From: Gammaproteobacteria bacterium
GTDB taxonomy: Bacteria; Pseudomonadota; Gammaproteobacteria; SZUA-152
Reading direction: 5' to 3'
Length of the DNA: 64,000 nucleotides
Assembly (NCBI GenBank): GCA_029882975.1
Contig: JAOUJW010000003.1
Coordinates: 67,090 to 131,089, forward strand
In this document: positions 731 to 57,996 of the stretch, piece by piece
Layout of the letters: each line of letters begins with the position of its first letter
Numbering within the stretch: position 1 is the first letter of the stretch
The notes under the pieces: model-generated
What the model saw: only the letters and a program-made list of their open reading frames with translations
What the model was told of the DNA's origin: nothing
Database searches by the model: none
Position numbers and translations under genes: made by a program

Positions 731-771
731 TTTCAATAGCGCAAGAGCATGGGTTAAAAGAGAGAGTACAT

Positions 772-3138
772 ATGGGTTGTAATTTTGAGGGTAAGCAGTT
801 TTTCCCAAAACGGTACATAGGTTTGGTTGTGGGTTTTTCCCTGTTGTTGGCGCAGAATGTTTTCGCCCTTGCAGAGAATGCGAAACCGGAAATCTCATCA
901 GGAATTGCGGATACTGATAATAAAACCAGAGCCGTGGAGTTGTTTAGTCTTGGGGAGTTCGGTGAGTCTATTGCCTATTGGAAAGCCGCACTTGCACAGG
1001 ATCAGGCCAGCGGTGATACAGAGGGGCAGGTTATTTCCTTGTACAACCTGTCCATTGCTCAACGGTCTGTAGGCGCTGTGACTAAGGCAATACGTAGTTT
1101 ACAAGAAGCTTGGCGCCGTGGGGTGAAAATCCACAACCCGGAACTCAAGGCGAGAATCAAAAGTAGTTTGGGTAGTTTGTTTTTGTATTCCGGGAAACAG
1201 GAAAAAGCGCTGGAATTGCTGCGTCAGGCGCGTCGGGATGCGGTGGCGATTAAGGATTGGGAACTGGAGTCCATGGTTTTAAATGATCTTGGGAATCTTT
1301 ATGCTGCACGGTCGCAGTATGACCTGGCATTGGGTACCTTTGAATTTGCCGCTTTGCTGGGTGAGCAAAACAAGAGTCCCTTGTTAACGGCCAAAGCCAA
1401 TACCAACATCACCTCGGTGTTGGTACAGCAAGGACGTGCGAAGGCGGCCAGTCGCAGTGCCGTTTCCGTATTACGTGGCTTACGGTCTCAATCGGTTTCC
1501 TATGAGTCCGTAATGATCTTGGCGAGTTTAGCCCAAGCTGTACAAGGTGTTATGCAATTGCCACTAAAACCTCAGGATCGGCTGGACCGCAAACAAATGG
1601 TTCATGAGGTGGTCAGGGCGATTAATCAGACCACAGATTTTCTCGATCGCTTGGCCAGCGGTCGTTTAGCATCGCGCGTCTATGGTGCTATGGCGGCTAT
1701 TTATGAGGCAGCTGAACAATGGGGTGATGCGGCTGCGTTAAATAGCAAGGCGATTTTTGAGGCACAAAAAGGCGAGTCCACCGATTTGTTATACCAGTGG
1801 CAGTGGCAAGCGGGGCGAATTTATAACAAACTGGGGCAGCAAGACGACTCGATTAGGGCTTACCGACTGGCTGTAAATGCCTTGCAGCCCATTCGTCAGG
1901 AACTGAGTAAGCGGCAATTGGGTAAAGATTCCCGGTTTTCAGAGACGCAAGGCAATGTCTATTTGGAGTTGACTGACAACTTGCTGAGAAAAACGGATAA
2001 TTTAAGCAATCCTCGTCAGCGAACCCAATTGCTATTGGAAGCCAGAAATACCATGGAGCTGCAAAAAGAGGCTGAATTACAGGATTATTTTAAAGACAGT
2101 TGTGTTGTTAATGCCAAGAACAACATTAAACACATTGATGAAACACTGGCGGATAATACGGCTGTTTTGTATCCCATATTACTTCCCGATCGTACGGAAT
2201 TACTGGTGAGCTTTGGCTCGGGGATGGAGCGATATACGGTTAAGAAAACCGAGGCAGAGGTTACTGAGGAGGTTAGAGCCCTACGGGTTCGCTTGGAAAG
2301 TCTGCGCACACGAGCCTATTTGCCTCATGCTCGAAAATTGTATCAATGGTTGATTCAGCCCATGGAAGCGGATTTTCAAAAACGCGGTATTAACACCTTG
2401 GTTATGGTGGCAGATAAATCCTTGCGTACCATCCCCATGTCCGTGTTGCATGATGGAGAGCAGTTTTTAATTAACAAATACGCTTTGGCGACTTCACCGG
2501 GGTTGAAACTCACTGACCCCAGGCCATTGCAGCGAGATAATTTGCAAATTCTACTAAGCGGATTAAGTGAGTCAGTACAAGGATTTCCGGCCTTACAATA
2601 TGTACGCGGGGAACTGGAGGAAATACAGGATTTGTATGTGGGTAAGTTGCTGCTAAACCGAGAATTTGTCAGCGCCAGTGTGGCGAAAGCTTTGCGGGAT
2701 ACCAATTACTCCGTTACCCATATTGCATCGCATAGTGTTTTTTCAGGTGACGTGGAACAATCCTATATCCTGACGTATGATGATCGAATCACTGTGGACC
2801 AATTGGGGCAATTTGCCGCTTTAAGTCGCAGTCGTTCCAAACCTATTGAGCTGTTGACCTTAAGTGCCTGCCAGACGGCAGCGGGAGATGATCGAGCGGC
2901 TCTGGGTTTGGCCGGCGTAGCTATTAAATCCGGGGCTCGCAGCGCCTTGGCCAGTTTGTGGGCAATAAATGATCAGGCTTCAGCTGTGCTGATTACGGAA
3001 TTTTATCGGCAGTTACGCGATCCGGTTGTTACCAAAGCGCAAGCCTTACAGCGTGCTCAGAGCAAGTTGATGCAGAACGTTCGGTATCGGCATCCGGGTT
3101 ACTGGTCTCCCTTCTTGTTAATTGGAAACTGGTTATAA
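772..3138 (+). CDS. Secreted TPR-repeat CHAT-domain protein (caspase-like clan CD peptidase fold)
   Basis: The ATG at 772 follows AGAGAG and avoids overlap with the upstream ORF. A signal-peptide-like N-terminus is present (GLVVGFSLLLAQNVFA). Multiple TPR-like repeats follow. The C-terminus has CHAT hallmarks (HIASHSVFSG..LLTLSACQTAAGD..ARSALASLWAINDQASA) with the His/Cys dyad in place. Confidence 0.75.
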   Translation: MGCNFEGKQFFPKRYIGLVVGFSLLLAQNVFALAENAKPEISSGIADTDNKTRAVELFSLGEFGESIAYWKAALAQDQASGDTEGQVISLYNLSIAQRSVGAVTKAIRSLQEAWRRGVKIHNPELKARIKSSLGSLFLYSGKQEKALELLRQARRDAVAIKDWELESMVLNDLGNLYAARSQYDLALGTFEFAALLGEQNKSPLLTAKANTNITSVLVQQGRAKAASRSAVSVLRGLRSQSVSYESVMILASLAQAVQGVMQLPLKPQDRLDRKQMVHEVVRAINQTTDFLDRLASGRLASRVYGAMAAIYEAAEQWGDAAALNSKAIFEAQKGESTDLLYQWQWQAGRIYNKLGQQDDSIRAYRLAVNALQPIRQELSKRQLGKDSRFSETQGNVYLELTDNLLRKTDNLSNPRQRTQLLLEARNTMELQKEAELQDYFKDSCVVNAKNNIKHIDETLADNTAVLYPILLPDRTELLVSFGSGMERYTVKKTEAEVTEEVRALRVRLESLRTRAYLPHARKLYQWLIQPMEADFQKRGINTLVMVADKSLRTIPMSVLHDGEQFLINKYALATSPGLKLTDPRPLQRDNLQILLSGLSESVQGFPALQYVRGELEEIQDLYVGKLLLNREFVSASVAKALRDTNYSVTHIASHSVFSGDVEQSYILTYDDRITVDQLGQFAALSRSRSKPIELLTLSACQTAAGDDRAALGLAGVAIKSGARSALASLWAINDQASAVLITEFYRQLRDPVVTKAQALQRAQSKLMQNVRYRHPGYWSPFLLIGNWL

Positions 3139-3438: not shown

Positions 3439-4029
3439 ATGCTTGCTGGTTTGAATAAATATTGGGCACTTGGTGCAGCGGTCATGTTACCGCTTGCGAT
3501 TCTCGGCGCGTGCAAACACCAAAACGGTGAATCCGTGAGTTTACAGCGTTTGTCAGATACCATCTATCAGATTGTCAAAGCGAACCGTCATGTCTACGCG
3601 CGTCACATCGTGCAGCGGTTGCATATGAATGACCAAACGGTGAAATTTGCCGAGCAATGGCAGGAGCTCAAAGCATTACCGGTGCCATCACAAATGTTGC
3701 GTATGGGTGCTGCGGAGGTGAATACCAGTAGCGGTGGTGATGTCCAATACAGCTTAAAGTCCCTGTGGGCCATCAATCGATCTCACTTTCCTGCTGAGAA
3801 TCAAGAGCGAGAAGGCTTGATTCATATTTTGAAAAATCCGGGTAAAAATTTCTACAGTGAAATAGAAGAGAGTGGGCAACGGTATTTTTTGGCAATATAT
3901 CCGGATATTGCTGTAGAACAGTCTTGTGTGGAATGCCACAATTCGCACCCAAACAGCCCTAAAAAAGATTTTCAGAAAGGGGACTTGATGGGTGGATTGA
4001 TTGTTCGGGTTCGGTTGCCTCAGAAGTAA
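3439..4029 (+). CDS. DUF3365 (Tll0287-like) lipoprotein with c-type haem motif
   Basis: Lipobox LAILGAC. The C-terminal signature SCVECHNSHPNSPKKDFQKGDLMGGLIV contains a CXXCH. Confidence 0.6.
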   Translation: MLAGLNKYWALGAAVMLPLAILGACKHQNGESVSLQRLSDTIYQIVKANRHVYARHIVQRLHMNDQTVKFAEQWQELKALPVPSQMLRMGAAEVNTSSGGDVQYSLKSLWAINRSHFPAENQEREGLIHILKNPGKNFYSEIEESGQRYFLAIYPDIAVEQSCVECHNSHPNSPKKDFQKGDLMGGLIVRVRLPQK

Positions 4030-4229: not shown

Positions 4230-4883
4230 TTAAAGACTGGCGAAATATGCTCTCAATTCATCCACTTTATTTTGAGGTATGTTATTGAATGCGCCCATCA
4301 ATTCATAAGGGCCGCCATAAAGGGACAGGTTCCGGCTTAAGGGCATGCTTTTTAGAGCCAAATCACTTGCGTTGAAAGCACGACTGGTGTCATCGACGCC
4401 GGCGGCGTGACAAATAGCGCATTTAGCAGCATAGAATGCGCGTCCATTGGGTATGACCTCAGTACTGACGGTTATCACCACCGTACCTTCTGCTTTGGTT
4501 CCATCGGGGTCCAAGGCAATATAATTAAAACGATCTTCTCCGGTAAAGCCGGTGACGGGGGTATAGGTAAATCGGCCCCCACCCTCGTGGATCACGCTAC
4601 CACCTTGGGTACTGTTACTGTCGAAACTATCAATGCCCAGGACGTGACCGCTGCTGCTGGAATCATTATCCAATACGCTGACCACGCCACTGGAATCCGG
4701 AGGCAGGCTCAGGGTGTCATTCCCGATAGTGAGTTCAGCCGGCGGTGGTACGGGTGGTGGAGCCGATTGTGTGCCGCTGTCATAGCAGGTTACCACGGTG
4801 AGCGCCAGCAGGATGACGGGCATGACTTGGTAGAGATAAAACCGGCGGCGATGTTGGAAGTGCATTGTGATTTTGGTTCTCAT
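4230..4883 (-). CDS. Lipoprotein with a cadherin-like/Big domain fused to a class I cytochrome c domain
   Basis: N-terminal hydrophobic/lipobox region (VILLALTVVTC). An adhesin-type Ig repeat is present (VLDNDS..GRFTYTPVTGFTGEDRFNYIALDPDG..TVVITV). The C-terminus has CAICH (CXXCH). It sits 10 nt downstream of the hexahaem gene on the same strand. The true start may be at 4865. Confidence 0.65.
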   Translation of the reverse strand: MRTKITMHFQHRRRFYLYQVMPVILLALTVVTCYDSGTQSAPPPVPPPAELTIGNDTLSLPPDSSGVVSVLDNDSSSSGHVLGIDSFDSNSTQGGSVIHEGGGRFTYTPVTGFTGEDRFNYIALDPDGTKAEGTVVITVSTEVIPNGRAFYAAKCAICHAAGVDDTSRAFNASDLALKSMPLSRNLSLYGGPYELMGAFNNIPQNKVDELRAYFASL

Positions 4884-4893
4884 ACAACATCAC

Positions 4894-6759
4894 CTACTGC
4901 GTGGTTAGGAAGTTGCTGATAAGGCCGGTGTCGCTGCCGGACCCGCTGGTACTCAAATAGGGTTGTAATTGTTGCATGTCATTTTTATTCACAATGGCCC
5001 GGTTGATTTCGCTTTGTGTGGCGCCGACAATATTGTCCACGGGACCGCCCTGGCCATTGACGCCGTGACAGGTTTCACAATACACATGATAGAGCCCTGC
5101 GCCGTCGACAGGTTTGGTACCCCCGCCACCGGAGGCGAGAAACTCGACAATCAATTGTTGTTGGGTGTTGTCCAACTGCAGGGATCGCATCAGAGCAATT
5201 CGGTTAATGGCATTTTCGACAAACCTCAAGGACGTACCTGTGACCACTTTATAAGTGCCACCACGACCGTCGGTACCGTGACACACCGAACAAAATACGC
5301 CATACAATCCCGCGCCATCCACGGGTAACGGCCCGCTGCCGCCGCTGCTCAGGAAGTTGCCAATGGCGTTCAGTTGGGTTGCATTGAGCTGTAACGGGTT
5401 CATCCAGCTTTCCGCTGCAATGGCGGCGCTGATCATGGTAGACGGCGCTCCGGTTACGGCCTTAAATTTACCGCCATGACCACCGTTGCCGTGACACACA
5501 GCACAGAAAATCCGGTACAGACCGGCGCCGTCAGTCGGCAGGCTGCCACTGCCTCCGGCGGTGAGAAAATTTGCCACCAGTTGAGTTTCCTCCAGCGACA
5601 GGCTGATGTTCTGCATGGCCGGTATATCGGCAATGGCAGCTGCTATCATGGGGAAGGAAGCACCGCTAACGCCTGACTCAATACCGCCGCGGCCATCAAT
5701 GCCATGGCAGGCGGAACAGAACATGCCATATAGGCCCGGACCGTCGTTAGGCCTGGGGGGAGGCGCAGTGCTGCCCACCAGCAGAAAATCTGCGATGAGC
5801 TGAACTTCATTGTTGGTGACAGAGATAGCGCTCATCGCGGCAATATTGTTCAATGCTGTTGTGATTTGTGTTGTTGTGGCACCCACTACTGCGACTGCAG
5901 AACCTCCGAATCCGCCGGTGCCATGACAGGCAAAACAATATTGGTTATAAAGCGCTTCACCTTCGGGTGAGCCGGCATTGGCGTTGATGATTACGGTGGT
6001 CGCGGCGGCAGCGGTGAGCTTATCGTTATCGGTTACTGCCATGGTAATGGTATAGCTGCCTTCGTTCATGTAACTGTGATTAACAACCGCTCCTTGTTCA
6101 AAAGCACTGCCGTCACCGAAGTCCCATAAATATCGTGATATGGTTCCGTCGCCATCCACGGATGCGCTCGCATCCAGTGATATGGAATCTCCGGGTTGAG
6201 CCGCGTACGGAGCGCTGATATGCGCTTCGGGAACGATAGGCCCCGGAGCCGGTACAATTTCAATATCCAAACTGCTAAGGGCAACGCTATCTCCTTCCAT
6301 GGTGGCGTCGTTGTCAGCGGATACAACAGCTGCATATAGAGTCACAACCCCGGTAGTGACCGGCGCTGTAAAGGTAAACGTCCATTCTACGCCGGCGTTA
6401 CCGACGCTATAGGGGGAACTGTGTTTCAGTTCCCGTTGCTCCAGTACCATATTGCTGCTGCCAGGCGTTAAGGTGCCTGCTGTGGCGCTGATATTGAAAC
6501 CCCCCAGGTTTTGTTGGCCTCCGCTCATAATCAAGGTGAAACCGGCACTGCTGCCGGCCTCCATGTTGATGGCGCCGTTTAGACTGATGGAAGGGGGGAT
6601 ACCTCCCGTGTGGCAAGCACTGCAACTGGATCCGGCGTTGGTATTGGGATTGCCCGATTGGCCGGTAATTCCGCTGCTCAAAGCGGTGGCCTGTTGGGGT
6701 ATGCTCAGTGAGAGTAGCAAGAGAAAATAAAAACTATTTGGTAATGAACGTTGTACCAT
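4894..6759 (-). CDS. Secreted multi-domain cytochrome c (six CXXCH motifs in tandem class I cytochrome c-like domains) with a PKD domain
   Basis: Signal peptide present (FYFLLLLSLSIPQQATA). Six CXXCH motifs: CSACHTGG, CFACHGTGG, CSACHGIDGRGG, CAVCHGNGGHGG, CSVCHGTDGRGG, CETCHGVNGQGG. Each motif is preceded by a repeated ..DGAGLY..FC.. segment. A PKD signature is present (YLWDFGDGS..GSYTITMAVTDND). Confidence 0.75.
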   Translation of the reverse strand: MVQRSLPNSFYFLLLLSLSIPQQATALSSGITGQSGNPNTNAGSSCSACHTGGIPPSISLNGAINMEAGSSAGFTLIMSGGQQNLGGFNISATAGTLTPGSSNMVLEQRELKHSSPYSVGNAGVEWTFTFTAPVTTGVVTLYAAVVSADNDATMEGDSVALSSLDIEIVPAPGPIVPEAHISAPYAAQPGDSISLDASASVDGDGTISRYLWDFGDGSAFEQGAVVNHSYMNEGSYTITMAVTDNDKLTAAAATTVIINANAGSPEGEALYNQYCFACHGTGGFGGSAVAVVGATTTQITTALNNIAAMSAISVTNNEVQLIADFLLVGSTAPPPRPNDGPGLYGMFCSACHGIDGRGGIESGVSGASFPMIAAAIADIPAMQNISLSLEETQLVANFLTAGGSGSLPTDGAGLYRIFCAVCHGNGGHGGKFKAVTGAPSTMISAAIAAESWMNPLQLNATQLNAIGNFLSSGGSGPLPVDGAGLYGVFCSVCHGTDGRGGTYKVVTGTSLRFVENAINRIALMRSLQLDNTQQQLIVEFLASGGGGTKPVDGAGLYHVYCETCHGVNGQGGPVDNIVGATQSEINRAIVNKNDMQQLQPYLSTSGSGSDTGLISNFLTTQ

Positions 6760-7335
6760 AATTTTCTACCAACAATAGTACCCGTACCTCGGTGCGCTCA
6801 TGTATCTCCTGAAATTGATTTTCCTGCTGTCATGGTGGTGCAATGGGCCACTGATGTCTGTATTACGTTGGGCAATCAGAGAGGGTTCCCTTTATTTATA
6901 GTCCCAAACCCTATGCTTGCGCAATCAAAATAATAGTGATTTAAGTATAAAATCAGCTTATGTTGACTGACGCTTAAACCCATACACAATTGGATTTTGT
7001 CATACAAACAAGCGTTTATTGGTTTGGCGGGGTGGCCAGGCAGTTGCCCATTGTCCGTGGTTTTCCTACGTGTTACGGCGCAAGTTCGGTAATTACAGAG
7101 GAAAATAGCGCGCGTGTCTTACGTATAAAAAAGAAGTGCAGAGTATTGATTGTTGTGATGTAAGCGTAGTGTGGTATAGGCGGCGAATGGTTTTTGATGT
7201 ATATCATAGTGGCTCTAGAGTATTGCGACTATGCTGGGGTTACATAAACGGTAGTAACAGAATGTGTATCAAGTCCAGTTCCGCTAATAATGGTCTAGAC
7301 TTCTTTGAAGGCCACCCTGTCGAGCGGAGAAGAAA

Positions 7336-8433
7336 ATGGTGAAACGCAGACAATTGGTGATGATCTGTGGGGGACTTGTGTTGTTCTTCCAAGGACCGTT
7401 TTTCGCGTTCGTACAAATCTCTTTATTGCAAAACCCTTTGTTCCTAAGCCAGTTGTTCCAAAACCGGTTGTTTCAAAACGCATACTCGCAACGCGCCTTT
7501 CTGGTAAGCAATGGTGTCGTCTGGGCAGAGGAGCGAAAAGTCTTTACCGAAGACGATATTCAAGAGTCTGATATAAAGCCGGCCGGAAGTATTCCTTATT
7601 CCCAAAAAGGTGCGGATACCTGCCTAAAGTGCCATGATGAAGATTACGCTTTTCCCGTCTTGGATATTTTCTACGGCGTCCACGGTAACCGTGTTAATAA
7701 GCGCTCACCCATGGCGGGTTTGCAATGTGAGTCTTGTCATGGTCCGGGTGGTTTGCATGAGTTAGAACCTTTTGTAGGTAAACCCAGGGCTCCGATTATT
7801 AAATTTGGGCGCGACAGCCAAACTGCTGTCAGTAAACAAAATTCAATGTGTTTACAGTGTCATGCGGACCAACACAGAGCACAGTGGCGGGGTAGTGCAC
7901 ACCAGAGCCAAGCGATGCGGTGTGTGGATTGTCACACTTTACATGTGCCCAAAGACCCAATTATGCAACGCGATACGCAGGTGGATAAATGTTTCCAATG
8001 CCACCCAAAACAACGAGCTGAATTCCAGCGTTCTTCGGTCCACCCGGTTCGATTTGGGAAAATGCAATGTACCCAATGCCACAATCCCCACGGTGCGGTA
8101 GCGCCATTCTTGTTGCGTAACAACAGCAGTCGCTTATGTTATACCTGTCACGCGGATAAGCGTGGTCCGTTCCTTTGGGCTCATGCGCCGGTCTCGGAGG
8201 ACTGCGGTATTTGTCACAGGCCACACGGTTCGGTTTACGATGCTTTGCTAAAAAAGCGAGCCCCGCTGTTGTGTCAGCAATGTCATGCCAACGGGCATTC
8301 CAGTGTCAAATATGGCAGTGATGGTTTAGCTCAGCAAACCCCTAATGCCTTTTTGTTGGCTAAATCCTGTTTGAATTGTCATTTTCAGATTCATGGTTCT
8401 AATCATCCTTCCGGGGTGAAGTTAATGCGTTAG
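7336..8433 (+). CDS. Decahaem c-type cytochrome, DmsE/MtrA/MtoA/PioA family
   Basis: Ten CXXCH motifs in about 290 aa: CLKCH, CESCH, CLQCH, CVDCH, CFQCH, CTQCH, CYTCH, CGICH, CQQCH, CLNCH. Signal-peptide-like N-terminus. Followed 34 nt later by an MtrB-like barrel gene. Confidence 0.8.
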   Translation: MVKRRQLVMICGGLVLFFQGPFFAFVQISLLQNPLFLSQLFQNRLFQNAYSQRAFLVSNGVVWAEERKVFTEDDIQESDIKPAGSIPYSQKGADTCLKCHDEDYAFPVLDIFYGVHGNRVNKRSPMAGLQCESCHGPGGLHELEPFVGKPRAPIIKFGRDSQTAVSKQNSMCLQCHADQHRAQWRGSAHQSQAMRCVDCHTLHVPKDPIMQRDTQVDKCFQCHPKQRAEFQRSSVHPVRFGKMQCTQCHNPHGAVAPFLLRNNSSRLCYTCHADKRGPFLWAHAPVSEDCGICHRPHGSVYDALLKKRAPLLCQQCHANGHSSVKYGSDGLAQQTPNAFLLAKSCLNCHFQIHGSNHPSGVKLMR

Positions 8434-8467
8434 GGGTTTAAACGCTGCGTTACTACGGAGACCGACA

Positions 8468-10573
8468 ATGAAACGAGTGCAGTTCCTGCTTTTAATGATG
8501 CCAATAATGTCTTTAGTAGTTATGTGCTTGCCGCTTAGCGTACTGTATGCACAAGAATCTCCTTTAGACGTGGCAGGAGGCACAGCCGGTTGGGAATGCA
8601 AATGGTGTCCTGTTACCGATGTAACAGCTCACGCAGAGATAGAGTTAGGCGCGGGGTTTGTTACGGAAGATTCTATGTATGGAGACTACACAGGGTTGGG
8701 TGATCGTGGCGGTTATGCCATCGCAGCGTTTAATACAGCAAAACCGCCGGGTGATGCCGGCTGGAGTATGTCAGTGGAAGGGCAGGACTTGACTCTGGAT
8801 AGCCGTCGCTTGCTTTTGTCCAGTGAGTCAGCGGGGGTGATGGGTGTCGCGCTTGAGTACGATCAGATTCCTCGGCAGCACAGTGCCGTGCTTACGCCGT
8901 ATCAGGGAGAGTCGCAACAGGTGTTGCCTGTAACCTGGGTGAGCGCAGCAACGACAGGCGGGATGAGTCAGCTTAACAGCAGTTTGCACGAAGTGGTAAT
9001 CGGATCAGACAGAAAAAATCTGAATATTGATGCGGTATATCATCCATCGCCACAATTGTCGTATGAATTGAGTTTTCACCAATTGCAAAAGCAAGGTATA
9101 CGCATCCAAGGCTTGGCATTGGGTAATGTGTTTGTGACAGCAAGAAGTGCTTTGCTAACAGCTCCGGTGGATCAAGAGAGTCGCAATGCTCGCTTCAATG
9201 TGGCCCTACAGCAATCGCGCTTACAGACCTCGTTTTCTCTGGAGGTATCGGAATTTACCAATGCAGTGAAGGCCTTGCGCTGGGAAAACGCTTTTTCCGA
9301 ACCTGTTGGGGTCAGTCAAGGTCAGGCTGGCGCGGAACCCGGTAACGATATGCAACGTCTATCAGCGCAAGCCAGTTACATCGTCAGTGAACGCAGTCGC
9401 GCTTTTGCCGGACTAGCGTATGGCAGGATGGGACAGGATGAGTCCTTCCTGCCCTATACAGTGAATGTGGCTTTGACCCCCTCGGCTTTGCCGCGTAATT
9501 CCCTGAGAGGGGAGATTTTCACCTTCGATTTATCGCTTGGCTTTCTCAGTGCCCTTACTGAGCGCCTGCAATTGCAGGCAAGCTATATTCAGCAGGAACA
9601 GGATAATAATACAGACAGAGCCACATATACCTATGTTTCTGCGGATACCGCTATTAGCGGAGATCGGGCCAATTTTCCCTATAGTTTTCGTAAACGTCTG
9701 TTGCAAACTCAAGGCCGCTACAAATTCTCAGCTCTTCATCGTATTACCGCAGGTTATGACTATGAGTGGAATGATCGCACTTACCAGGAAATCAGTTCCG
9801 CCAAAGAGCAGAGGTTGTGGGGTGCTTATGTTGGAGAATTACAGCAGGGAACCGGTTTGAATCTTAAATTGGAACACTTGGATCGCATGGGGGAACGCTA
9901 CAGTCCGGTGGCAGAAATTGTTCCTGCGGAGAACCCCGCGCTGCGTAAGTACAATATGGCAGACCGCATTCGGGACCGAATCAATATTTCTGTTAGTTCG
10001 AGCACTTTCAGTCAGGTTGATTTTGCTCTGCAAGTGGAAATGTCTATGGACGAATACGATCATTCTGCCGTGGGACTGTTGGATAGTAAGGAACGCAGTT
10101 ATTCCGTGAACCTGAACTGGCACTTAAGTCGGTCAGCCTCCATAACAAGTGATTATAACCACACCGTGATGCGATCCTCGCAGGCGGGTAGCCAAGCGGC
10201 GTCCTCTTGGTATGCCCAGAATGACGAGACAGTGAATACAATTGGTCTGGGCTTGCAATGGCAGTTCGAAAATCGAACCAATCTGGGATTGAGCTACGAT
10301 TATTCCCGATTTTCCGGCGAAACCCGGATCTCGGAGATTGCGAATTTTCCCCAATTACTTTCTTCACGTCATAGCCTGGCTTTACAGGGTCACTATGTAC
10401 TGGACGCCCGTAGCGGTTTAAATACGGTATTTCGCTATGAAAAATATCGTGAAGAGGATTGGGCTTTGCAGGACGTCGCCGTTGATACTTTAGATAATGT
10501 GTTGTCTGTGGGTGAAGGGAATCCGGATTATCGAGTTTGGGTGGTGGCATTAAGTTATAACATGCGTTTTTAA
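8468..10573 (+). CDS. MtrB/PioB-family decahaem-associated outer-membrane beta-barrel protein
   Basis: About 700 aa with a signal peptide. The N-terminal CXXC motif (GWECKWCPV) is typical of MtrB. The sequence is rich in alternating beta-strand patterning and ends in C-terminal ..YNMRF. It sits immediately downstream of the decahaem gene. Confidence 0.75.
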   Translation: MKRVQFLLLMMPIMSLVVMCLPLSVLYAQESPLDVAGGTAGWECKWCPVTDVTAHAEIELGAGFVTEDSMYGDYTGLGDRGGYAIAAFNTAKPPGDAGWSMSVEGQDLTLDSRRLLLSSESAGVMGVALEYDQIPRQHSAVLTPYQGESQQVLPVTWVSAATTGGMSQLNSSLHEVVIGSDRKNLNIDAVYHPSPQLSYELSFHQLQKQGIRIQGLALGNVFVTARSALLTAPVDQESRNARFNVALQQSRLQTSFSLEVSEFTNAVKALRWENAFSEPVGVSQGQAGAEPGNDMQRLSAQASYIVSERSRAFAGLAYGRMGQDESFLPYTVNVALTPSALPRNSLRGEIFTFDLSLGFLSALTERLQLQASYIQQEQDNNTDRATYTYVSADTAISGDRANFPYSFRKRLLQTQGRYKFSALHRITAGYDYEWNDRTYQEISSAKEQRLWGAYVGELQQGTGLNLKLEHLDRMGERYSPVAEIVPAENPALRKYNMADRIRDRINISVSSSTFSQVDFALQVEMSMDEYDHSAVGLLDSKERSYSVNLNWHLSRSASITSDYNHTVMRSSQAGSQAASSWYAQNDETVNTIGLGLQWQFENRTNLGLSYDYSRFSGETRISEIANFPQLLSSRHSLALQGHYVLDARSGLNTVFRYEKYREEDWALQDVAVDTLDNVLSVGEGNPDYRVWVVALSYNMRF

Positions 10574-10584
10574 TGGAGGCGGTG

Positions 10585-11175
10585 ATGCGGGCACAATTGT
10601 TAGTGAAAAGTTTGTTGGTTGCCTGTATCAGTCTGGGGCCAGGAATATTACCGGCGCAGACTGATCCGCCGGCATCACAGTGTGCAATGTGCCATGGCGT
10701 TGATGGAAACAGTCCCAGTGCGTCGGCCCCTTCGATTGCCGGTATTACCCCGTACTACTTTAAATACACCATGGACGCGTACAAAAACGGTGGACGCAAC
10801 TCAGACATTATGAAAATGTTTGCGGGGCAGTTATCCGCAGCCGATATAGAACAGTTGGCACTATTTTACAGCGGGCAAAAACCTCTGGCACGTCAGCAGG
10901 CCATGGATTCAAACAAGGCGGCGCAAGGGCAAGGTCTGCATCAGCGTTATTGTGAAAAATGCCATAGCAACAATGGTGGTGTGAGCATCGATGGTTACGG
11001 AGTCCTGGCGGGGCAATGGACAGATTATTTGCGTCTGACTCTCCAAGAGTACCTTGCCGGAAAAAGACGTACTAATGCTATGATGCTGACCAAGCTACGG
11101 AAAATGCAAAGGCTTGAAGGGGAAGGTGCGCTGGAACGGTTGATTCAATTTTATGCCGGGGCACAACCGGATTAG
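10585..11175 (+). CDS. Dihaem cytochrome c (c4-like)
   Basis: GGAGG lies 5-9 nt upstream of the ATG at 10585. Signal peptide present. Two CXXCH motifs (CAMCHGVDG, CEKCHSNNGG), each followed by a Met-containing segment. Coupled to the end of the MtrB-like gene. An alternative start at 10573 overlaps the stop codon. Confidence 0.7.
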   Translation: MRAQLLVKSLLVACISLGPGILPAQTDPPASQCAMCHGVDGNSPSASAPSIAGITPYYFKYTMDAYKNGGRNSDIMKMFAGQLSAADIEQLALFYSGQKPLARQQAMDSNKAAQGQGLHQRYCEKCHSNNGGVSIDGYGVLAGQWTDYLRLTLQEYLAGKRRTNAMMLTKLRKMQRLEGEGALERLIQFYAGAQPD

Positions 11176-11990
11176 GGAGTGACCCCCATTGCCATTTGTG
11201 CGGCCAATGAAGTGCCGTCCAAGTAGCTGCTACTGTGCATGCGGGAGTCTATCTCGCCCGTTACTTTTGCACTGATTCGCAACGTGGCGGTGCATTCGGC
11301 TTGGTCGCCAATAAAGTTAAGCGCTCCCGGCGGGATGGATAGCTGGTTACTGTTGTGAACGAATGTACTGTATTGAATGCAGGTACCGGATATACTGAGG
11401 AAATACGTGTCGGCCGTAGAGTCCCAACTGACATCAATGGTGTCATTGGCTACAGAAAACACCTGGCCGGAGGCGGGGCTGCTAATAACAGGGGTTGCCG
11501 GTATTGTGATATTCGCGGCCAAATTGTTGCCATTGGCTCGATGCAAGGTAATGGTATATTGGATTTCGCCGCTTTGATTACTGATCCATTGTGTGTCGTA
11601 CCGTGATGATCCAAATAAATATGTGTCTCTATATAAGCTCTGTTGGATGACGCCGTCAGACGCAATCAAGCTTTCGTTAGCACTTAAGTCCACATATCCG
11701 GTTTCATCAGGTTCACGATCGACTTTTAACAGGAGCCAATTCATCTCGTTTTTACCTTTCTTCCGATAGCGTAAATCGGCATCGAGACTAATGAGTAAAG
11801 GGGAAGCACCCGGGGTTTCATGGCGTGATGAAATAGAATACTCGGCGATGATTTCATGATCCTTCAGCGATTCAGAGGATTGGGTGTTAACATCGCAGCC
11901 GCAGAGTGCCAGTAAAGAGAGCAGGCCGAGGTGGAGACATATTTTCCCCCGGTAATCAAAAAAAACGGAAATGGGATGCCTATTGCTCAT
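11172..11990 (-). CDS. Hypothetical lipoprotein
   Basis: Lipobox LLALCGC. No recognisable catalytic motif. It overlaps the cytochrome c4 stop codon by 4 nt in convergent orientation. Confidence 0.45.
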   Translation of the reverse strand: MSNRHPISVFFDYRGKICLHLGLLSLLALCGCDVNTQSSESLKDHEIIAEYSISSRHETPGASPLLISLDADLRYRKKGKNEMNWLLLKVDREPDETGYVDLSANESLIASDGVIQQSLYRDTYLFGSSRYDTQWISNQSGEIQYTITLHRANGNNLAANITIPATPVISSPASGQVFSVANDTIDVSWDSTADTYFLSISGTCIQYSTFVHNSNQLSIPPGALNFIGDQAECTATLRISAKVTGEIDSRMHSSSYLDGTSLAAQMAMGVTP

Positions 11991-13140: not shown

Positions 13141-14190
13141 ATGCCGCAAATTCATCGTTACTCGGTTAAGAGTCTGTTTTTGACTGGATTGTTTTGTGCC
13201 GTATTTGCCATCACCGCAATTACGATCACTGCATTCAGTTCCTTGTATTGGATTACTTCCAGTGCCAATACTTTGGTTGAGCAGTCCATACAGCAAACCA
13301 GTCGTTTGGTGGAGCTGTCTGCGGCGTTGCCGGATGTTTCCTCAGAGTTTCAAACTCACCAGAAAAAGATGCAGAAATCCATCGATGTGGCGTCAGAAAA
13401 ACTTATGCATGACAAATTTGATGTGTTAATGCTGCTGTCTGTAGTCGCCATTATTTCCTTGATGCTTATGGCTGCCGGGATTGGTATTTTGTCTAAAGTG
13501 ATTTTTCCTTCGATTTCTCAGTTTCTTAATGCTGTTGAAGAATACAATGCCGGGGAACTGTCCTATCGGTTGGCTCATGAACAAATGCCCAAAGAACTGC
13601 AAAATGTGGCCACCGGATTCAATACTATGGCCCATCAGTTGGAACAATCCTATGCCAAGCTGGCTTACCATGCTACCAACGATGAGTTGACCGGGGTATA
13701 CAATAGGCGCAAGTTCATCATGGACTTAGAGCGGGAAGTCAAACGGGCTAAGCGTTACAGCCGCGGAGTATCGTTGATGTTGATTGATATGGATGATTTT
13801 TCTTCCGTCAACGACAAACACGGCCATGAGTCCGGCGACAAAGTATTATGTAAGACTGTGGATTTCATCTACAAAAGCATTCGGGATTCCGACAGCCTGT
13901 ATCGATATGGTAGTGAGGAGTTTGCTGTCATTTTGGTGGAGATTTCAGATCAGGATACCGGCATTGTGGGCGAGCGAATTCGCGAAAGTATTTGCGAATA
14001 TCCTATCGCCTTGCCGGGTGGAATCAATGTGGAGACCAGCGTCAGTATTGGAATTGCGAACTTTCCGTCCCATTCCGATAACGAAATCAATTTGATTCAT
14101 GCGGCTGACGAAGCCTTGTACCGGGCCAAATCGCAAGGAAAAAACCAAGTGGTACATACCAACGAAATGGTTCGCGCGAAAGCGGGCTAA
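13141..14190 (+). CDS. Membrane-bound GGDEF diguanylate cyclase (HAMP-like linker); active-site motif reads GSEEF
   Basis: Two transmembrane segments. GGDEF-domain hallmarks are present (GVYNRRKF, DMDDFSSVNDKHGHESGD, RYGSEEFAVIL). Confidence 0.75.
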   Translation: MPQIHRYSVKSLFLTGLFCAVFAITAITITAFSSLYWITSSANTLVEQSIQQTSRLVELSAALPDVSSEFQTHQKKMQKSIDVASEKLMHDKFDVLMLLSVVAIISLMLMAAGIGILSKVIFPSISQFLNAVEEYNAGELSYRLAHEQMPKELQNVATGFNTMAHQLEQSYAKLAYHATNDELTGVYNRRKFIMDLEREVKRAKRYSRGVSLMLIDMDDFSSVNDKHGHESGDKVLCKTVDFIYKSIRDSDSLYRYGSEEFAVILVEISDQDTGIVGERIRESICEYPIALPGGINVETSVSIGIANFPSHSDNEINLIHAADEALYRAKSQGKNQVVHTNEMVRAKAG

Positions 14191-14421: not shown

Positions 14422-15228
14422 ATGAGTACTCCAGCAATTCATACCGCACCAGAGCGGGTGTTGTATCTTGCTCAGGGTTCGGAATGTGAGGTCATGCGTT
14501 CGGCCTATGAGCGCCAATTGCCTTTGCTCATCAAAGGGCCTACCGGTTGCGGTAAAACCCGATTCGTACGTCATATGGCTGCGCAACTGGGGCGTCCCTT
14601 ATACACGGTTTCTTGTCATGACGAGTTATCGGCCGCAGATTTGGTGGGGCGGTTTTTAATTCGAGGTGAGGAAACCGTGTGGCAGGATGGGCCTTTGACC
14701 CAGGCGGTGCGTGAAGGGGCTATTTGTTATCTGGATGAAGTGGTGGAAGCCCGCAAGGATACCACGGTGATTTTGCATCCCCTGACTGATGACCGGCGCG
14801 AGTTGCCTCTGGAGAAAACCGCAGAATTGGTCAAGGCGCCGGCAGAATTCATGCTGGTGATCTCCTATAATCCAGGTTACCAGAACATGTTTAAAAACTT
14901 AAAACCGAGCACTCGCCAGCGGTTTGTTGCTCTGACGTTTCAGTTTCCCAAGCCGGAATTAGAGCTGGCTATTCTGCAACAAGAAACGGGAATCAATGAA
15001 TCCATGGCAAAAAAATTGGTGGAGTTGGGTGGTAACCTGCGTGCGTTGCAGGGACACGACCTGGAGGAGGTGCCCTCAACTCGCTTATTGGTGCATGCGG
15101 CTATGCTCATTATGAACGGCCTCAATCCGGCTGAATCCTGTCGTGTGGCAGTGGTGGAAGCATTAACGGACGATCCTTTGATTCAGGAAGGGCTATGGGA
15201 AATTGTGCAATCCATCGTGGTTTCGTGA
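14422..15228 (+). CDS. CbbQ/NirQ/NorQ-family MoxR-type AAA+ ATPase
   Basis: Walker A (LLIKGPTGCGKTRFV) and Walker B (ICYLDEVVEA) motifs. About 268 aa, typical of this family. Confidence 0.8.
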   Translation: MSTPAIHTAPERVLYLAQGSECEVMRSAYERQLPLLIKGPTGCGKTRFVRHMAAQLGRPLYTVSCHDELSAADLVGRFLIRGEETVWQDGPLTQAVREGAICYLDEVVEARKDTTVILHPLTDDRRELPLEKTAELVKAPAEFMLVISYNPGYQNMFKNLKPSTRQRFVALTFQFPKPELELAILQQETGINESMAKKLVELGGNLRALQGHDLEEVPSTRLLVHAAMLIMNGLNPAESCRVAVVEALTDDPLIQEGLWEIVQSIVVS

Positions 15229-15261
15229 GTCCGAATTCCATTGTGTGTATCACACTAACTC

Positions 15262-17004
15262 ATGCAAAGTGAACTGCTTCATTACCTCCCGCTTCGTTAC
15301 GCTCTAGGGTTGCAGGCTGAGCCGCAATATCCCCAAGCGGTGGTGAAGCTGGAACACATCGAAAAAAGCTTGAATATCTACTTGCATGCACTAACCCGTT
15401 CCTGCGAGATCAAACTGGAACCGGCTCCGGCGCTTAGGATGCTACAACGCTATTCCTTGCATCGCCATGCCCATTCGCTGGTGCGTCAGGAAAGTGGTAT
15501 TGCTCGCTTACCCCAACAGATTCAAAGATTTGAACAAAAAGAATTAAACCGAGATTTGTATTTTTGGCTCACGGCATATCTTGCTTTTGACCAACCGTTA
15601 CCGAGCCCGGATTCAGAGGCCGCTCACTTGCCGGAAGCTTTGGGGCACATATTGCAAGGCGTTATGACCAGTGCCAGGGTGTTACAGGCTTGTCCGGGGC
15701 TGGCGCCACGGTATCAGCGCTTATGTCGAGCCTGTTTGTTGGAGCGGGATCGTATTACCGTATTACACAGGTGCAAATCCGCTCGGGACGTGGATATGGA
15801 GGGGGCTATACGTAAAGCCCTGGGCGATGATTCCGTAGAGGTGTCGCGTTGGCTGCATCATGCCTTGGACGCCGCAGGGGTCGGGGTGCTGTTACCTAAT
15901 CCTCCAAAGCAATGGTTAGAGCCATCCTTGGCATACTGGCCTGCTCCGGTATGGGGGCGTCCGCTTCAAAAAGCGGCGGCGCTGGAATTGGGTTCGTTTG
16001 ATATGATTGATGAAGACTTGATCGAGGTTAAACCCGAATCGAAAAAAGCCGTTGATGAGTTGGATTTGTCCGAGTACCTGGAAGCACCGGATGATGTGAC
16101 CGGTGAGGAACTCAGTGGTAATTTTTTATACCCGGAGTGGAATTGCAAAACGGAATCCTATCGGGAAAATTGGTGTCGTGTGATCGAGGAAGAGCAGGAG
16201 CGCGATGATTGGGTGGAACCGCCGCCTCATTTAGGCAAACTGTCCCGCCGGGTGCGACGCCAGTTTGAAGCCTTGCGTACCGATGACCGTTGGTTGCGTC
16301 GTGTAACCGATGGTGAAGAAGTGGATATGGATGATTTTATTGATGCCGTGTCACAGCGACGGGGTTGTGGCTATGCCAGTGAGCGCTTATATCGCCATCG
16401 TAAGCGCGATGATCGGGAGTTGGCAGTGATGGTGTTATTGGATGTTTCCAAATCCACTCAATCCATGTTAGATGGAGCCCGGGTCATTGATGTGGAGCGT
16501 CAAGCAATGATTGTAATGGCCGAAGCGCTGGCCGAGGTGGGTGATACGTTTTCCATTTATGCTTTTTCCGGATATGGGCGGGTACAGGTCGATTGTTTGC
16601 GCGTCAAAGCGTTTGATGAAAGTTACGGCGCAGCGGTGCGCGAACGTATTTTTTCTCTCACGCCCCGAGGTTCCACCCGTCTCGGAGCCGCTTTACGGCA
16701 CATGGCAAAGCGGTTACGAACCCGGCAGGAACGCCATAAACTTTTGTTGATGTTAACCGATGGTCGGCCTTACGATCCGGCAGATCACTATAAAGGTCTA
16801 TATGCTTTGGAGGATACACGCAAAGCCCTGCAGGAGATGCAAACGGAGGGTATATACGCTTACGGGTTAACTATAGATCAGTCCGGATTGGAGTACCTGC
16901 CTTACTTATTTGGGCCGGGGAGATATACCGTATTCAGTAACGTGCTCACGCTACCGGAATTTTTACCGAAGTTATATGCCAGGCTAACCGGTCTGGGTGT
17001 TTAA
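15262..17004 (+). CDS. VWA-domain protein, NorD/CbbO-like partner of the preceding AAA+ ATPase
   Basis: C-terminal VWA domain with a MIDAS-like motif (LLDVSKST). It sits 33 nt downstream of the CbbQ/NorQ-like gene. Size about 580 aa. Confidence 0.65.
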   Translation: MQSELLHYLPLRYALGLQAEPQYPQAVVKLEHIEKSLNIYLHALTRSCEIKLEPAPALRMLQRYSLHRHAHSLVRQESGIARLPQQIQRFEQKELNRDLYFWLTAYLAFDQPLPSPDSEAAHLPEALGHILQGVMTSARVLQACPGLAPRYQRLCRACLLERDRITVLHRCKSARDVDMEGAIRKALGDDSVEVSRWLHHALDAAGVGVLLPNPPKQWLEPSLAYWPAPVWGRPLQKAAALELGSFDMIDEDLIEVKPESKKAVDELDLSEYLEAPDDVTGEELSGNFLYPEWNCKTESYRENWCRVIEEEQERDDWVEPPPHLGKLSRRVRRQFEALRTDDRWLRRVTDGEEVDMDDFIDAVSQRRGCGYASERLYRHRKRDDRELAVMVLLDVSKSTQSMLDGARVIDVERQAMIVMAEALAEVGDTFSIYAFSGYGRVQVDCLRVKAFDESYGAAVRERIFSLTPRGSTRLGAALRHMAKRLRTRQERHKLLLMLTDGRPYDPADHYKGLYALEDTRKALQEMQTEGIYAYGLTIDQSGLEYLPYLFGPGRYTVFSNVLTLPEFLPKLYARLTGLGV

Positions 17005-32389: not shown

Positions 32390-32457
32390 TGTTTAACAAA
32401 CTCCTGTGAAAATTGTTCGGTATTTGGTGCGCACAATCGAGTTGGCCATATATCGTG

Positions 32458-33186: not shown

Positions 33187-33196
33187 GGCTGTTCCT

Positions 33197-37837: not shown

Positions 37838-37841
37838 GAAA

Positions 37842-40070: not shown

Positions 40071-40088
40071 GCGGAGGGGACAAGAACA

Positions 40089-43553: not shown

Positions 43554-43715
43554 GGGACTAGGTTATTGGGCTTTTGAGTCAGGGTCAAGCGGCGGGAAAA
43601 TCACATGTGCAGGTAATTTAACATTTGTCACATTAAGTGCTTTATTCTGTTACCGATAGTGAATTGCGGTAGGGTTTGCATTCAAACCTTAGTGGAGATG
43701 GGCCAAGGATACCTA

Positions 43716-57988: not shown

Positions 57989-57996
57989 GTGTAACC

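What the first reader, a model, noticed from the sequence alone, without database searches (positions are those of the whole stretch)
7336..11175. MtrAB/MtoAB/PioAB-like porin-cytochrome conduit with a trailing dihaem cytochrome c4, in a genome that also carries sulfur-oxidation genes
A 10-haem periplasmic cytochrome (ten CXXCH in about 290 aa) is followed after 34 nt by a roughly 700-aa outer-membrane barrel carrying the N-terminal CXXC motif characteristic of MtrB/PioB. A dihaem c4-like cytochrome then overlaps the barrel stop codon. This is the architecture of extracellular electron transfer conduits used for Fe(III)/Mn reduction (Mtr), Fe(II) oxidation (Mto/Pio) or electrode uptake. The third gene is a c4-type dihaem rather than a CymA-like quinol dehydrogenase or the monohaem MtoD. 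That points to a periplasmic shuttle towards a terminal oxidase or bc1, the wiring expected for electron uptake (iron or cathode oxidation) rather than metal reduction.
Basis: partly seen in the sequence, partly recalled or inferred. Interest (0 to 1): 0.7.

Follow-up and report, generated by a model that had tools for sequence, protein, structure and literature searches.

The report
Outer-membrane electron conduit with unusual partners
An uncultured gammaproteobacterium with sulfur-oxidation genes carries a well-known outer-membrane "electron wire" (MtrAB/MtoAB), but in place of the usual outer cytochrome MtrC it sits beside two secreted cytochromes for which I found no published description, in a conserved five-gene module.

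Summary
ORF 7336-8433 has ten CXXCH motifs and scores above NCBI's cut-off for the DmsE/MtrA decahaem family. ORF 8468-10573 is a full-length MtrB/PioB porin with the N-terminal CXXC. A two-haem cytochrome follows.

- The two-haem protein is not best described as c4. Its closest solved relatives are the haem subunit of flavocytochrome-c sulfide dehydrogenase (FccA, 121 bits; c4 at most 54 bits). Its best NCBIfam profile is PdsA, the periplasmic shuttle of metal-reducing Aeromonas. It therefore does not indicate electron uptake.
One gene encodes a hexahaem protein: a choice-of-anchor V domain, a PKD domain and five tandem His/Met class-I cytochrome c domains. The other encodes an Ig-like lipoprotein with one haem.

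This pair lies next to MtoAB in 6 of 7 loci examined, and the four proteins co-diverge. The associated MtoA proteins form their own clade (85/100 bootstrap) nested among MtrCAB clusters. No clade member has MtrC or a quinol dehydrogenase gene nearby.

The direction of electron flow cannot be read from sequence. The trio is an ordinary new member of a known kind. The five-gene module looks like an undescribed variant.

The parts
4230..4883 (-). Ig-like (Big_9/cadherin-like) lipoprotein with a C-terminal one-haem class-I cytochrome c domain, 217 aa. It starts 10 nt after the stop of the hexahaem gene.
   Evidence: Pfam Big_9 50 bits and Cadherin_5 34.6 bits. CAICH lies at residue 155. The lipobox Cys followed by [YF][DE]S, the Pro/Gly-rich linker, CAICH and the LMG Met are conserved in six orthologues. 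It always lies directly after the hexahaem gene. NCBI annotates it only as 'Ig-like domain-containing protein'. The 10-nt spacing is shown.
4894..6759 (-). Secreted hexahaem cytochrome, 621 aa. In order: signal peptide; choice-of-anchor V domain with one CXXCH (residue 46); PKD domain; five tandem class-I cytochrome c domains of about 71 aa (CXXCH at 275, 348, 419, 490 and 561), each with a conserved Met.
   Evidence: NF041895 choice_anch_V 134.8 bits (cut-off 42). PKD_4 70 bits and Cytochrome_CBB3 115 bits. An AF2 model of residues 1-270 has pLDDT 86 and shows a beta-sandwich followed by a PKD domain. The family has about 34 members among 5.8 billion proteins.
6760..7335 (.). Divergent promoter region, 576 bp, 43% GC.
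   Evidence: It lies between the two divergent operons. One weak sigma-70-like site starts at 6963.
7194..7207 (.). FNR/FixK-type box TTGATGTATATCAT (one mismatch to TTGAT-N4-ATCAA), 141 nt upstream of the decahaem start codon.
   Evidence: Sites with at most one mismatch also occur in the equivalent regions of L085, L086 and L097. In total there are 6 sites in 4,850 bp, against 0.49 expected; 0 of 2,000 shuffles reached 6.
7336..8433 (+). Periplasmic decahaem cytochrome of the MtrA/MtoA/DmsE family, 365 aa. Its N-terminal part, about 85 residues, is not conserved in relatives.
8468..10573 (+). MtrB/MtoB/PioB-family outer-membrane porin, 701 aa, with CKWC at residues 44-47.
10585..11175 (+). 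Periplasmic dihaem cytochrome of the FccA/PdsA type, 196 aa. An alternative start at 10573 would give 200 aa.
   Evidence: The Cys in its signal peptide is not conserved, so it is probably soluble and not a lipoprotein.

Best explanation
Window 4230-11175 encodes a five-gene extracellular electron-transfer module.

Shown by homology:
- MtoA (decahaem) inserted in MtoB (porin) forms a haem wire across the outer membrane, as in the solved MtrAB core.
- A soluble FccA/PdsA-type dihaem cytochrome is the periplasmic partner of MtoA.

Inferred from conserved synteny, co-divergence and domain content: the two divergently transcribed cytochromes take the genomic place that MtrC holds in the nearest relatives. 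They most likely form the outward-facing end of the conduit. The Ig-like one-haem lipoprotein would be anchored at the outer membrane. The choice-of-anchor V-PKD protein would extend a string of five His/Met haem domains from it.

Inferred from FNR/FixK-type boxes: the module is probably switched on when oxygen is scarce.

The direction of electron flow is not determinable from sequence. I lean towards uptake from extracellular reduced iron or sulfide minerals (or a cathode-like surface), about 50%. My reasons are that all accessory haems are predicted to be His/Met class-I (typically high potential) and that no quinol dehydrogenase gene accompanies the module. Export of electrons from periplasmic sulfur oxidation is a serious alternative, about 30%.
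For: Identity of the core.

Dihaem type.

Conservation of the module. The PKD-cytochrome and Big_9-cytochrome genes are adjacent in all 7 loci examined. They lie next to MtoA-MtoB in 6 of these 7 (window, L085, L086, L097, L099, L100). In L097 the four genes are on one strand. The dihaem gene lies next to MtoB in the window, L085, L086, L088, L099 and L100.
- 11 of 34 PKD-cytochrome homologues share a longest-contig length with a top-120 MtoA homologue.
- Of all window ORFs, only these five recur in several related loci; the few other matches are each confined to a single locus.
- Pairwise divergences of the four proteins correlate, r = 0.83-0.94.

Phylogeny. The MtoA proteins of these loci form one clade (85/100 NJ bootstrap) nested among clusters that carry MtrC. 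A large multihaem ORF (at least 8 CXXCH, at least 550 aa) was flagged in 54 of the 80 genome loci. None of the 80 has a PKD-cytochrome. There is no MtrC-like or tetrahaem gene in the 64-kb window.

Surface location. The choice-of-anchor V domain also heads adhesin-like proteins built of PKD, LapB and tandem-95 repeats. PKD and Big_9 domains are present. The lipobox is conserved.

His/Met ligation: a conserved Met in every repeat.

FNR boxes. There is a precedent: pioABC is controlled by FixK (PMC3050613).
Against: There are no experimental data, and all members come from uncultured organisms.
- Localisation of the two accessory cytochromes is inferred. Neither has a recognisable surface-sorting tag, and outer-membrane lipoproteins face the periplasm by default.
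- L098 carries the pair with no MtoAB within about 9 kb upstream and 3 kb downstream.
- L088 has MtoAB plus the dihaem without the pair.
- Passing electrons from high-potential His/Met haems to a low-potential bis-His decahaem would be uphill. This fits a periplasmic position downstream of MtoA at least as well as an extracellular one.
- The closest profile match of the dihaem, PdsA, works in the reductive direction.
- The tree is neighbour-joining only and lacks reference MtoA (Sideroxydans) and PioA sequences.
- FNR-type boxes are absent in L088, L099 and L100.
Confidence: 0.6

Rival explanations
1. Same module, opposite direction. Electrons released in the periplasm by sulfide or thiosulfate oxidation reduce the FccA-like dihaem. 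They then leave through MtoAB to an extracellular acceptor (Mn(IV) or Fe(III) oxides, humics, a conductive partner) when oxygen is lacking.
For: The dihaem is most similar to FccA, the electron-accepting subunit of sulfide dehydrogenase, and to PdsA of metal reducers. The window holds sulfur-oxidation-type genes: a SoeABC-like complex, Qmo/Hdr-like genes and a DsrE-like gene. A DsrC gene lies next to the module in L086. FNR-type boxes suggest induction under anoxia. Sister clusters are MtrCAB-type.
Against: No fccB flavoprotein gene lies next to the dihaem. The predicted His/Met class-I accessory haems are poorly suited to reducing Fe(III) oxides. All characterised outward conduits use bis-His multihaem outer cytochromes (general knowledge of MtrC and OmcA).
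Confidence: 0.3
2. The two accessory cytochromes are periplasmic, not extracellular. The lipoprotein sits on the inner face of the outer membrane beside MtoA. The string of five class-I haem domains bridges the periplasm to cbb3 oxidase or bc1. MtoAB would then work without any outer cytochrome, as proposed for MtoAB and PioAB.
For: Class-I His/Met cytochromes are typical periplasmic carriers. Electron flow from MtoA to high-potential haems to an oxidase would be downhill. No C-terminal sorting tag is present. Weak similarity to CcoP and c551-type proteins.
Against: PKD, Big_9/cadherin-like and choice-of-anchor V domains are characteristic of surface or secreted proteins. The same N-terminal domain heads adhesin-like repeat proteins. 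A separate soluble periplasmic dihaem is already encoded in the module.
Confidence: 0.3
3. The adjacency is fortuitous: the divergent pair has a function unrelated to MtoAB, for example adhesion or redox sensing.
For: L098 has the pair without MtoAB within reach. L088 has MtoAB without the pair.
Against: Adjacency in 6 of 7 loci at 35-63% identity, in three different gene arrangements, one of them on a single strand. The proteins co-diverge. The associated MtoA proteins form a clade of their own.
Confidence: 0.05
4. A DmsEF-type conduit that feeds an extracellular or periplasmic molybdoenzyme reductase.
For: The NCBI name is 'DmsE family'. A molybdopterin oxidoreductase lies 22 kb away.
Against: The Shewanella loci without MtrC have a DmsA-like gene directly after the porin and form a distant clade. 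No locus of the window's clade has one. The window's molybdoenzyme has no Tat signal, and its subunit sizes fit the cytoplasm-facing SoeABC.
Confidence: 0.02

Closest known systems
MtrCAB with PdsA and NetBCD/CymA (Aeromonas, Vibrio; MtrCAB groups 2 and 3 of Baker et al. 2022, PMC8805035)
   Same: The MtrA/MtrB core is homologous. A PdsA-related dihaem cytochrome is encoded in the cluster. The nearest genome relatives have exactly this architecture (Aeromonas diversa is L029).
   Different: No MtrC and no tetrahaem quinol dehydrogenase. The dihaem gene lies after mtrB rather than divergently upstream. Two class-I cytochromes occupy the upstream position.
MtoAB-MtoD-CymA/MtoC of Sideroxydans and Gallionella (proposed Fe(II) oxidation)
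   Same: A porin plus decahaem without MtrC, in a chemolithotroph, with a class-I periplasmic cytochrome encoded alongside.
   Different: The partner is a two-haem FccA/PdsA-type protein, not the one-haem MtoD. There is no inner-membrane CymA/MtoC gene. The extra PKD-hexahaem and Ig-like cytochrome genes are present. Phylogenetic relation to the reference MtoA was not tested.
PioABC of Rhodopseudomonas palustris TIE-1
   Same: An MtrAB-type pair used with a high-potential soluble carrier. Control by an FNR/FixK-type regulator is documented for pio (PMC3050613) and suggested here by the conserved boxes.
   Different: No HiPIP (PioC) was seen among the neighbouring genes. The N-terminal extension of the decahaem is about 85 residues; PioA is reported to have a much longer one (recalled from the literature, not checked here).
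Flavocytochrome c sulfide dehydrogenase FccAB (Allochromatium, Thermochromatium; PDB 1fcd, 3vrd)
   Same: The third gene product aligns with FccA over its full length at 37-39% identity, including both haem motifs and both Met ligand regions.
   Different: No FccB flavoprotein gene is adjacent. The gene is linked to a porin-cytochrome conduit instead.
Cyc2 and PCC3 of neutrophilic iron oxidisers
   Same: The concept is shared: a class-I (Cyc2) or long multihaem (PCC3) cytochrome exposed at the outer membrane for electron uptake (PMC10734462).
   Different: No sequence relationship was detected. Here the haem domains are separate beads on a secreted PKD protein, not fused to a porin.

Membership tests
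DmsE/MtrA/MtoA decahaem cytochromes (TIGR03508) | Ten CXXCH motifs in a protein of about 300-370 aa | tested here: met
   Ten motifs at residues 96-349 of 365 aa.
DmsE/MtrA/MtoA decahaem cytochromes (TIGR03508) | Profile score above the curated cut-off; homology to a solved MtrA | tested here: met
   292.7 bits against a cut-off of 192.2; 315 bits to 6r2q_A.
DmsE/MtrA/MtoA decahaem cytochromes (TIGR03508) | Haem-loaded protein threaded through the partner porin | not testable with these tools
   Needs biochemistry or a multimer model with cofactors.
MtrB/PioB porins (PF11854, TIGR03509) | Full-length profile match above the cut-off; gene directly after the decahaem gene | tested here: met
   394 bits (PF11854) and 367.3 bits (TIGR03509, cut-off 240); 202 bits to 6r2q_B; 34-nt gap to the decahaem gene.
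MtrB/PioB porins (PF11854, TIGR03509) | N-terminal CXXC motif | tested here: met
   CKWC at residues 44-47, conserved in six orthologues.
MtrB/PioB porins (PF11854, TIGR03509) | 26-strand beta-barrel | not tested
   No structure prediction was run for this protein. The barrel is inferred from end-to-end homology to 6r2q_B.
MtrCAB (metal-reducing type) | MtrC/OmcA-family decahaem lipoprotein encoded next to mtrAB | tested here: not met
   No ORF with at least 8 CXXCH other than MtoA in the 64-kb window or in the clade's loci.
MtoAB (Sideroxydans type) | mtoD (one-haem) and cymA/mtoC genes in the cluster | tested here: not met
   No tetrahaem ORF in the window. The neighbours are different cytochromes.
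MtoAB (Sideroxydans type) | Fe(II) oxidation activity | not testable with these tools
   Needs a culture or heterologous expression.
PioABC | HiPIP PioC in the operon; long processed N-terminal extension of PioA | tested here: not met
   No HiPIP among the annotated neighbours. The N-terminal extension is only about 85 residues.
PdsA periplasmic dihaem shuttle (NF049874) | Profile score above the curated cut-off | tested here: not met
   95.7 bits against a cut-off of 330, although the match is end to end (profile positions 9-198 of 198). 36% identity to the PdsA-position protein of Aeromonas diversa. It is a homologue, not an equivalog.
FccA, haem subunit of flavocytochrome c sulfide dehydrogenase | Full-length similarity including both haem sites | tested here: met
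   120.7 and 114.3 bits; query residues 33-197 align with residues 7-173 of 174.
FccA, haem subunit of flavocytochrome c sulfide dehydrogenase | Adjacent fccB flavoprotein gene | tested here: not met
   The neighbours are MtoB and a 272-aa protein with no Pfam match.
Cytochrome c4 | Two class-I domains, with closest similarity to c4 proteins | tested here: inconclusive
   Two class-I domains are present. However, c4 structures score only 44-54 bits, against 121 bits for FccA.
DmsEF (extracellular DMSO respiration) | dmsAB genes directly after the porin gene | tested here: not met
   Present in seven Shewanella loci and absent here and in the clade. The clades are distant.
Choice-of-anchor V domain proteins (NF041895) | Profile score above the cut-off at the N-terminus after a signal peptide | tested here: met
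   134.8 bits against a cut-off of 42, residues 18-164.

The most novel reading that the evidence does not exclude
The choice-of-anchor V-PKD-poly(class-I cytochrome c) protein and its Ig-like lipoprotein cytochrome are a new kind of cell-surface partner for MtrAB-type conduits. In one gammaproteobacterial lineage they replaced the bis-His decahaem MtrC with a string of high-potential His/Met haems, and this swap re-tuned the conduit, most plausibly for electron uptake.
Probability: 0.4. Interest if true: 0.75.

Novelty: new variant of a known kind. Interest (0 to 1): 0.6.

Why it matters
What sets the direction and the substrate of MtrAB-type conduits is an open question. Published trees do not separate iron oxidisers from iron reducers. 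Baker et al. (PMC8805035) raise, without settling it, the idea that MtrC confers the reductive capacity.

A lineage that kept MtrAB and the dihaem shuttle, lost MtrC and the quinol dehydrogenase, and gained two predicted high-potential secreted cytochromes is a natural experiment on that question. It yields concrete genes to express, localise and titrate.

It also adds markers (the PKD-hexahaem and the Ig-like cytochrome) that current annotation misses: NCBI calls them 'c-type cytochrome' and 'Ig-like domain-containing protein'. It also bears on whether sulfur oxidisers exchange electrons with minerals.

Tried and rejected
- A metagenome scan with the decahaem protein returned only 7 loci, of which one (L090) was useful.
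- The exhaustive representative search with the hexahaem protein was swamped by PKD-repeat proteins. It could not size the family, though it did reveal other choice-of-anchor V architectures.
- The word-indexed search with the 217-aa Ig-like cytochrome found only 7 proteins, which is a sensitivity limit of the tool.
- Two exact look-ups failed because the longest-ORF start codons were wrong.
- Rfam found nothing in the window.
- The 'Kaarinaea lacus' label on close homologues was checked and dismissed as taxonomy. It is a cyanobacterium, so these are contigs of associated bacteria.
- Literature searches for PKD or choice-of-anchor combined with MtoA, MtrAB or extracellular electron transfer found nothing relevant.
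- The DmsEF reading was rejected.
- A lipoprotein reading of the dihaem was rejected because the Cys is not conserved.
- Placement relative to reference MtoA (Sideroxydans) and PioA could not be done, because those sequences were not retrievable.

Full report
**1. The observation**

- ORF A (7336-8433, 365 aa) has ten CXXCH motifs between residues 96 and 349. It passes the curated NCBIfam cut-off for the DmsE/MtrA decahaem family (292.7 bits against 192.2). It aligns with MtrA of the solved MtrCAB complex (6r2q_A, 315 bits).
- ORF B (8468-10573, 701 aa) matches PF11854 and TIGR03509 end to end (394 and 367 bits). It also matches MtrB of the same structure over residues 40-698. It carries CKWC at residues 44-47, a motif conserved in every orthologue inspected.
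- ORF C has two CXXCH motifs.
- One detail needs correcting. The ATG at 10573 shares one base with the stop codon of B. The ATG at 10585 follows a GGAGG at ideal spacing and is the start used in GenBank.

All five proteins of the locus are already deposited (MDH5324458-62) under generic names, in a MAG labelled only 'Gammaproteobacteria bacterium'.

**2. The third gene**

Calling it 'c4-like' is structurally loose.
- Against all PDB sequences, the best matches are the dihaem subunits of flavocytochrome-c sulfide dehydrogenase from Thermochromatium and Allochromatium. They score 120.7 and 114.3 bits, over the full length, at 37-39% identity. Cytochromes c4 reach 44-54 bits.
- Among NCBIfam models the best is PdsA, the periplasmic dihaem shuttle. 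The match is end to end but well below the equivalog cut-off (95.7 against 330).
- The protein is about as far from FccA (39%) as from the PdsA-position protein of Aeromonas diversa (36%). It is 45-63% identical to its orthologues in related loci.
- It has an ordinary signal peptide and no conserved lipobox. No fccB gene is adjacent.

PdsA carries electrons towards MtrA in metal reducers (PMC8805035), and FccA accepts electrons from sulfide oxidation. The presence of this gene therefore says nothing in favour of uptake.

**3.

Directly upstream, on the other strand, lie two more c-type cytochrome genes.
- The 621-aa product of 4894-6759 has, in order: a signal peptide; a choice-of-anchor V domain (134.8 bits, cut-off 42) holding one CXXCH; a PKD domain; and five tandem class-I cytochrome c domains of about 71 residues. 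Each of these has CXXCH and a conserved Met, so His/Met ligation is predicted.
- The 217-aa product of 4230-4883 starts 10 nt after the first gene's stop. It has a conserved lipobox Cys, a Pro/Gly-rich linker, a Big_9/cadherin-like Ig domain and a C-terminal one-haem domain (CAICH and a conserved Met).
- GenBank names it only 'Ig-like domain-containing protein'.

**4. Is the pair linked to MtoAB?**

The hexahaem family is small. About 34 full-length members were found among 5.8 billion proteins, all from metagenomes or MAGs, with 3-11 haem motifs.
- Eleven of them share a longest-contig length with one of the top-120 MtoA homologues.
- I read seven loci. The two genes are adjacent in all seven. 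They lie next to MtoA-MtoB in six: the window, L085, L086, L097, L099 and L100.
- These six loci show three different arrangements. In L097 (35% identity) the order is porin-like gene, hexahaem, Ig-cytochrome, MtoA, MtoB, all on one strand.
- L098 has the pair with no MtoAB within about 9 kb upstream and 3 kb downstream. L088 has MtoAB plus the dihaem without the pair.
- Of all window ORFs, only these five recur in several related loci; the few other matches are each confined to a single locus.
- Pairwise divergences of MtoA, MtoB, the hexahaem N-terminus and the Ig-cytochrome correlate, r = 0.83-0.94 over six loci. One close pair of loci contributes much of this.

**5. Evolutionary position**

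A genome scan gave 80 loci from named species or MAGs, at 42-56% identity.
- In 54 of the 80, a large multihaem ORF (at least 8 CXXCH, at least 550 aa; nearly all with ten CXXCH), MtrC-like, lies beside MtrA-MtrB.
- Many of these also have a PdsA-like dihaem and a tetrahaem gene, divergently upstream. This is the Aeromonas architecture.
- None of the 80 has the PKD-hexahaem.
- In a neighbour-joining tree of 92 MtrA/MtoA sequences, the loci carrying the pair, together with L088, form one clade. It has 85/100 bootstrap support, or 72/100 without L097. It is nested among MtrC-containing clusters, including those of Ca. Thiodiazotropha and a Gallionellaceae MAG.
- The Shewanella loci without MtrC are DmsEF clusters. 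They have a DmsA-like gene after the porin and are distant in the tree. This removes the DMSO-reductase alternative named in the finding.
- The simplest reading is that a lineage with an MtrCAB-PdsA cluster lost MtrC and the quinol dehydrogenase and acquired the two class-I cytochromes.

**6. Location of the accessory cytochromes (inferred)**

- PKD, Big_9/cadherin-like and choice-of-anchor domains are typical of secreted or surface proteins.
- The same choice-of-anchor V domain heads adhesin-like proteins made of PKD, LapB and tandem-95 repeats. It also heads other polycytochromes.
- NCBI's related model is a MYXO-CTERM surface protein family. MYXO-CTERM proteins reach the surface through type II secretion; this is my own recollection of the literature, not tested here.
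- Against this, there is no sorting tag at the C-terminus, and a periplasmic relay role would be energetically easier.
- I put an extracellular location at about 55-60%.

**7. Regulation**

An FNR/FixK-type box (TTGAT-N4-ATCAA, one mismatch) lies 141 nt upstream of mtoA, in the divergent promoter region.
- Sites with at most one mismatch recur in the equivalent regions of L085, L086 and L097. They are absent in L088, L099 and L100.
- In total there are 6 sites in 4,850 bp, against 0.49 expected. None of 2,000 shuffles reached 6.
- pioABC is controlled by FixK (PMC3050613).
- Induction under low oxygen is therefore likely, but it fits either direction of electron flow.

**8. Direction of electron flow**

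Published analyses state that MtoA/PioA and MtrA are not separable by phylogeny and may conduct either way (PMC8805035; PMC10734462).
- For uptake: only predicted His/Met class-I haems accompany the conduit; no CymA, NetBCD or MtoC gene is linked; MtrC has been lost.
- For export: the dihaem is related to FccA and PdsA; the sister clusters are MtrCAB-type; the organism has sulfur-oxidation-type genes. These are a SoeABC-like complex whose catalytic subunit lacks a Tat signal, Qmo/Hdr-like genes and a DsrE-like gene, plus DsrC beside the module in L086.
- Sulfide-oxidising Gammaproteobacteria on metal sulfides have been proposed to use decahaem cytochromes for mineral oxidation (PMC6850669).
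- I lean to uptake, about 50% against 30%. Sequence alone cannot decide this.

**9. Verdict**

The trio as reported is a correctly recognised but ordinary, already annotated member of the MtrAB/MtoAB family. The argument for direction does not hold.

The wider five-gene module is conserved, clade-specific and lacks MtrC. It carries two accessory cytochromes for which I found no description in the searchable literature. I rate it a new variant of a known kind, of moderate to good interest.

Noticed in passing
window 3439-4029 (+): A Tll0287-like protein (60.6 bits) with a lipobox (ILGAC) and one CXXCH, convergent with the Ig-like cytochrome gene. It brings the count to five c-type cytochrome genes within 8 kb. 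It is not conserved in related loci.
   Followed up: partly
window 31415-36088 (-), 30314-31315 (-): A three-subunit molybdopterin oxidoreductase (963, 242 and 324 aa). The catalytic subunit has no Tat signal. The sizes fit the cytoplasm-facing sulfite dehydrogenase SoeABC as I recall it, but no curated model confirms this. A MoaA-like radical-SAM gene lies next to it.
   Followed up: partly
window 36503-41620 (+): HdrA-like flavoproteins (one with an MvhD/FlpD-type domain) followed by a CCG-domain protein. The set is QmoAB/HdrBC-like, as found with APS reductase pathways in sulfur oxidisers.
   Followed up: no
window 27366-29699 (+); L100 2540-4750: A 777-aa SoxB-like 5'-nucleotidase/metallophosphatase. 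It scores 138 bits against thiosulfohydrolase SoxB (cut-off 550), so it is not a bona fide SoxB. A homologue (335 bits) lies about 800 bp from the dihaem gene in L100.
   Followed up: partly
window 14422-17004 (+): A CbbQ/NorQ-type AAA+ ATPase followed by a 580-aa VWA protein (CbbO/NorD-like). No RuBisCO or nitric-oxide reductase gene was seen in the annotated surroundings.
   Followed up: no
window 13141-14190, 41817-42977, 45669-47777, 50833-53361; 23250-24851, 43659-45638: An unusually dense set of cyclic-di-GMP proteins (GGDEF, and GGDEF-EAL with PAS, DAHL or receiver domains) and two methyl-accepting chemotaxis proteins around the module.
   Followed up: no
window 53358-54458 (-): A di-haem cytochrome c peroxidase (CCP_MauG, 125 bits) whose start overlaps the end of the DAHL-PAS-GGDEF-EAL gene by 4 nt. 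A CCP gene also lies near the module in L100.
   Followed up: no
window 658-3138 (+), 56948-58078 (-): A TPR-CHAT protein (826 aa) and, elsewhere in the window, a caspase-domain (Peptidase_C14) protein next to several ORFs with no Pfam match.
   Followed up: no
L097 6456-8447: An extra, orphan MtrB/PioB-like porin (663 aa) directly upstream of the hexahaem gene. It has no partner decahaem gene and no W-x-C-K-W-C motif.
   Followed up: no
L088, L100 (GCA_975968695.1, GCA_975971605.1): Assemblies labelled Kaarinaea lacus (a Nostocales cyanobacterium) contain contigs with MtrAB-type conduits and the PKD-hexahaem. These must come from associated proteobacteria, so the species label on these proteins is misleading.
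   Followed up: partly
window 11172-11990 (-): A 272-aa predicted lipoprotein (LALCGC) with no Pfam or NCBIfam match, convergent with the dihaem gene and overlapping it by 4 nt. It is not conserved in related loci.
   Followed up: partly
[not shown]
   Followed up: partly
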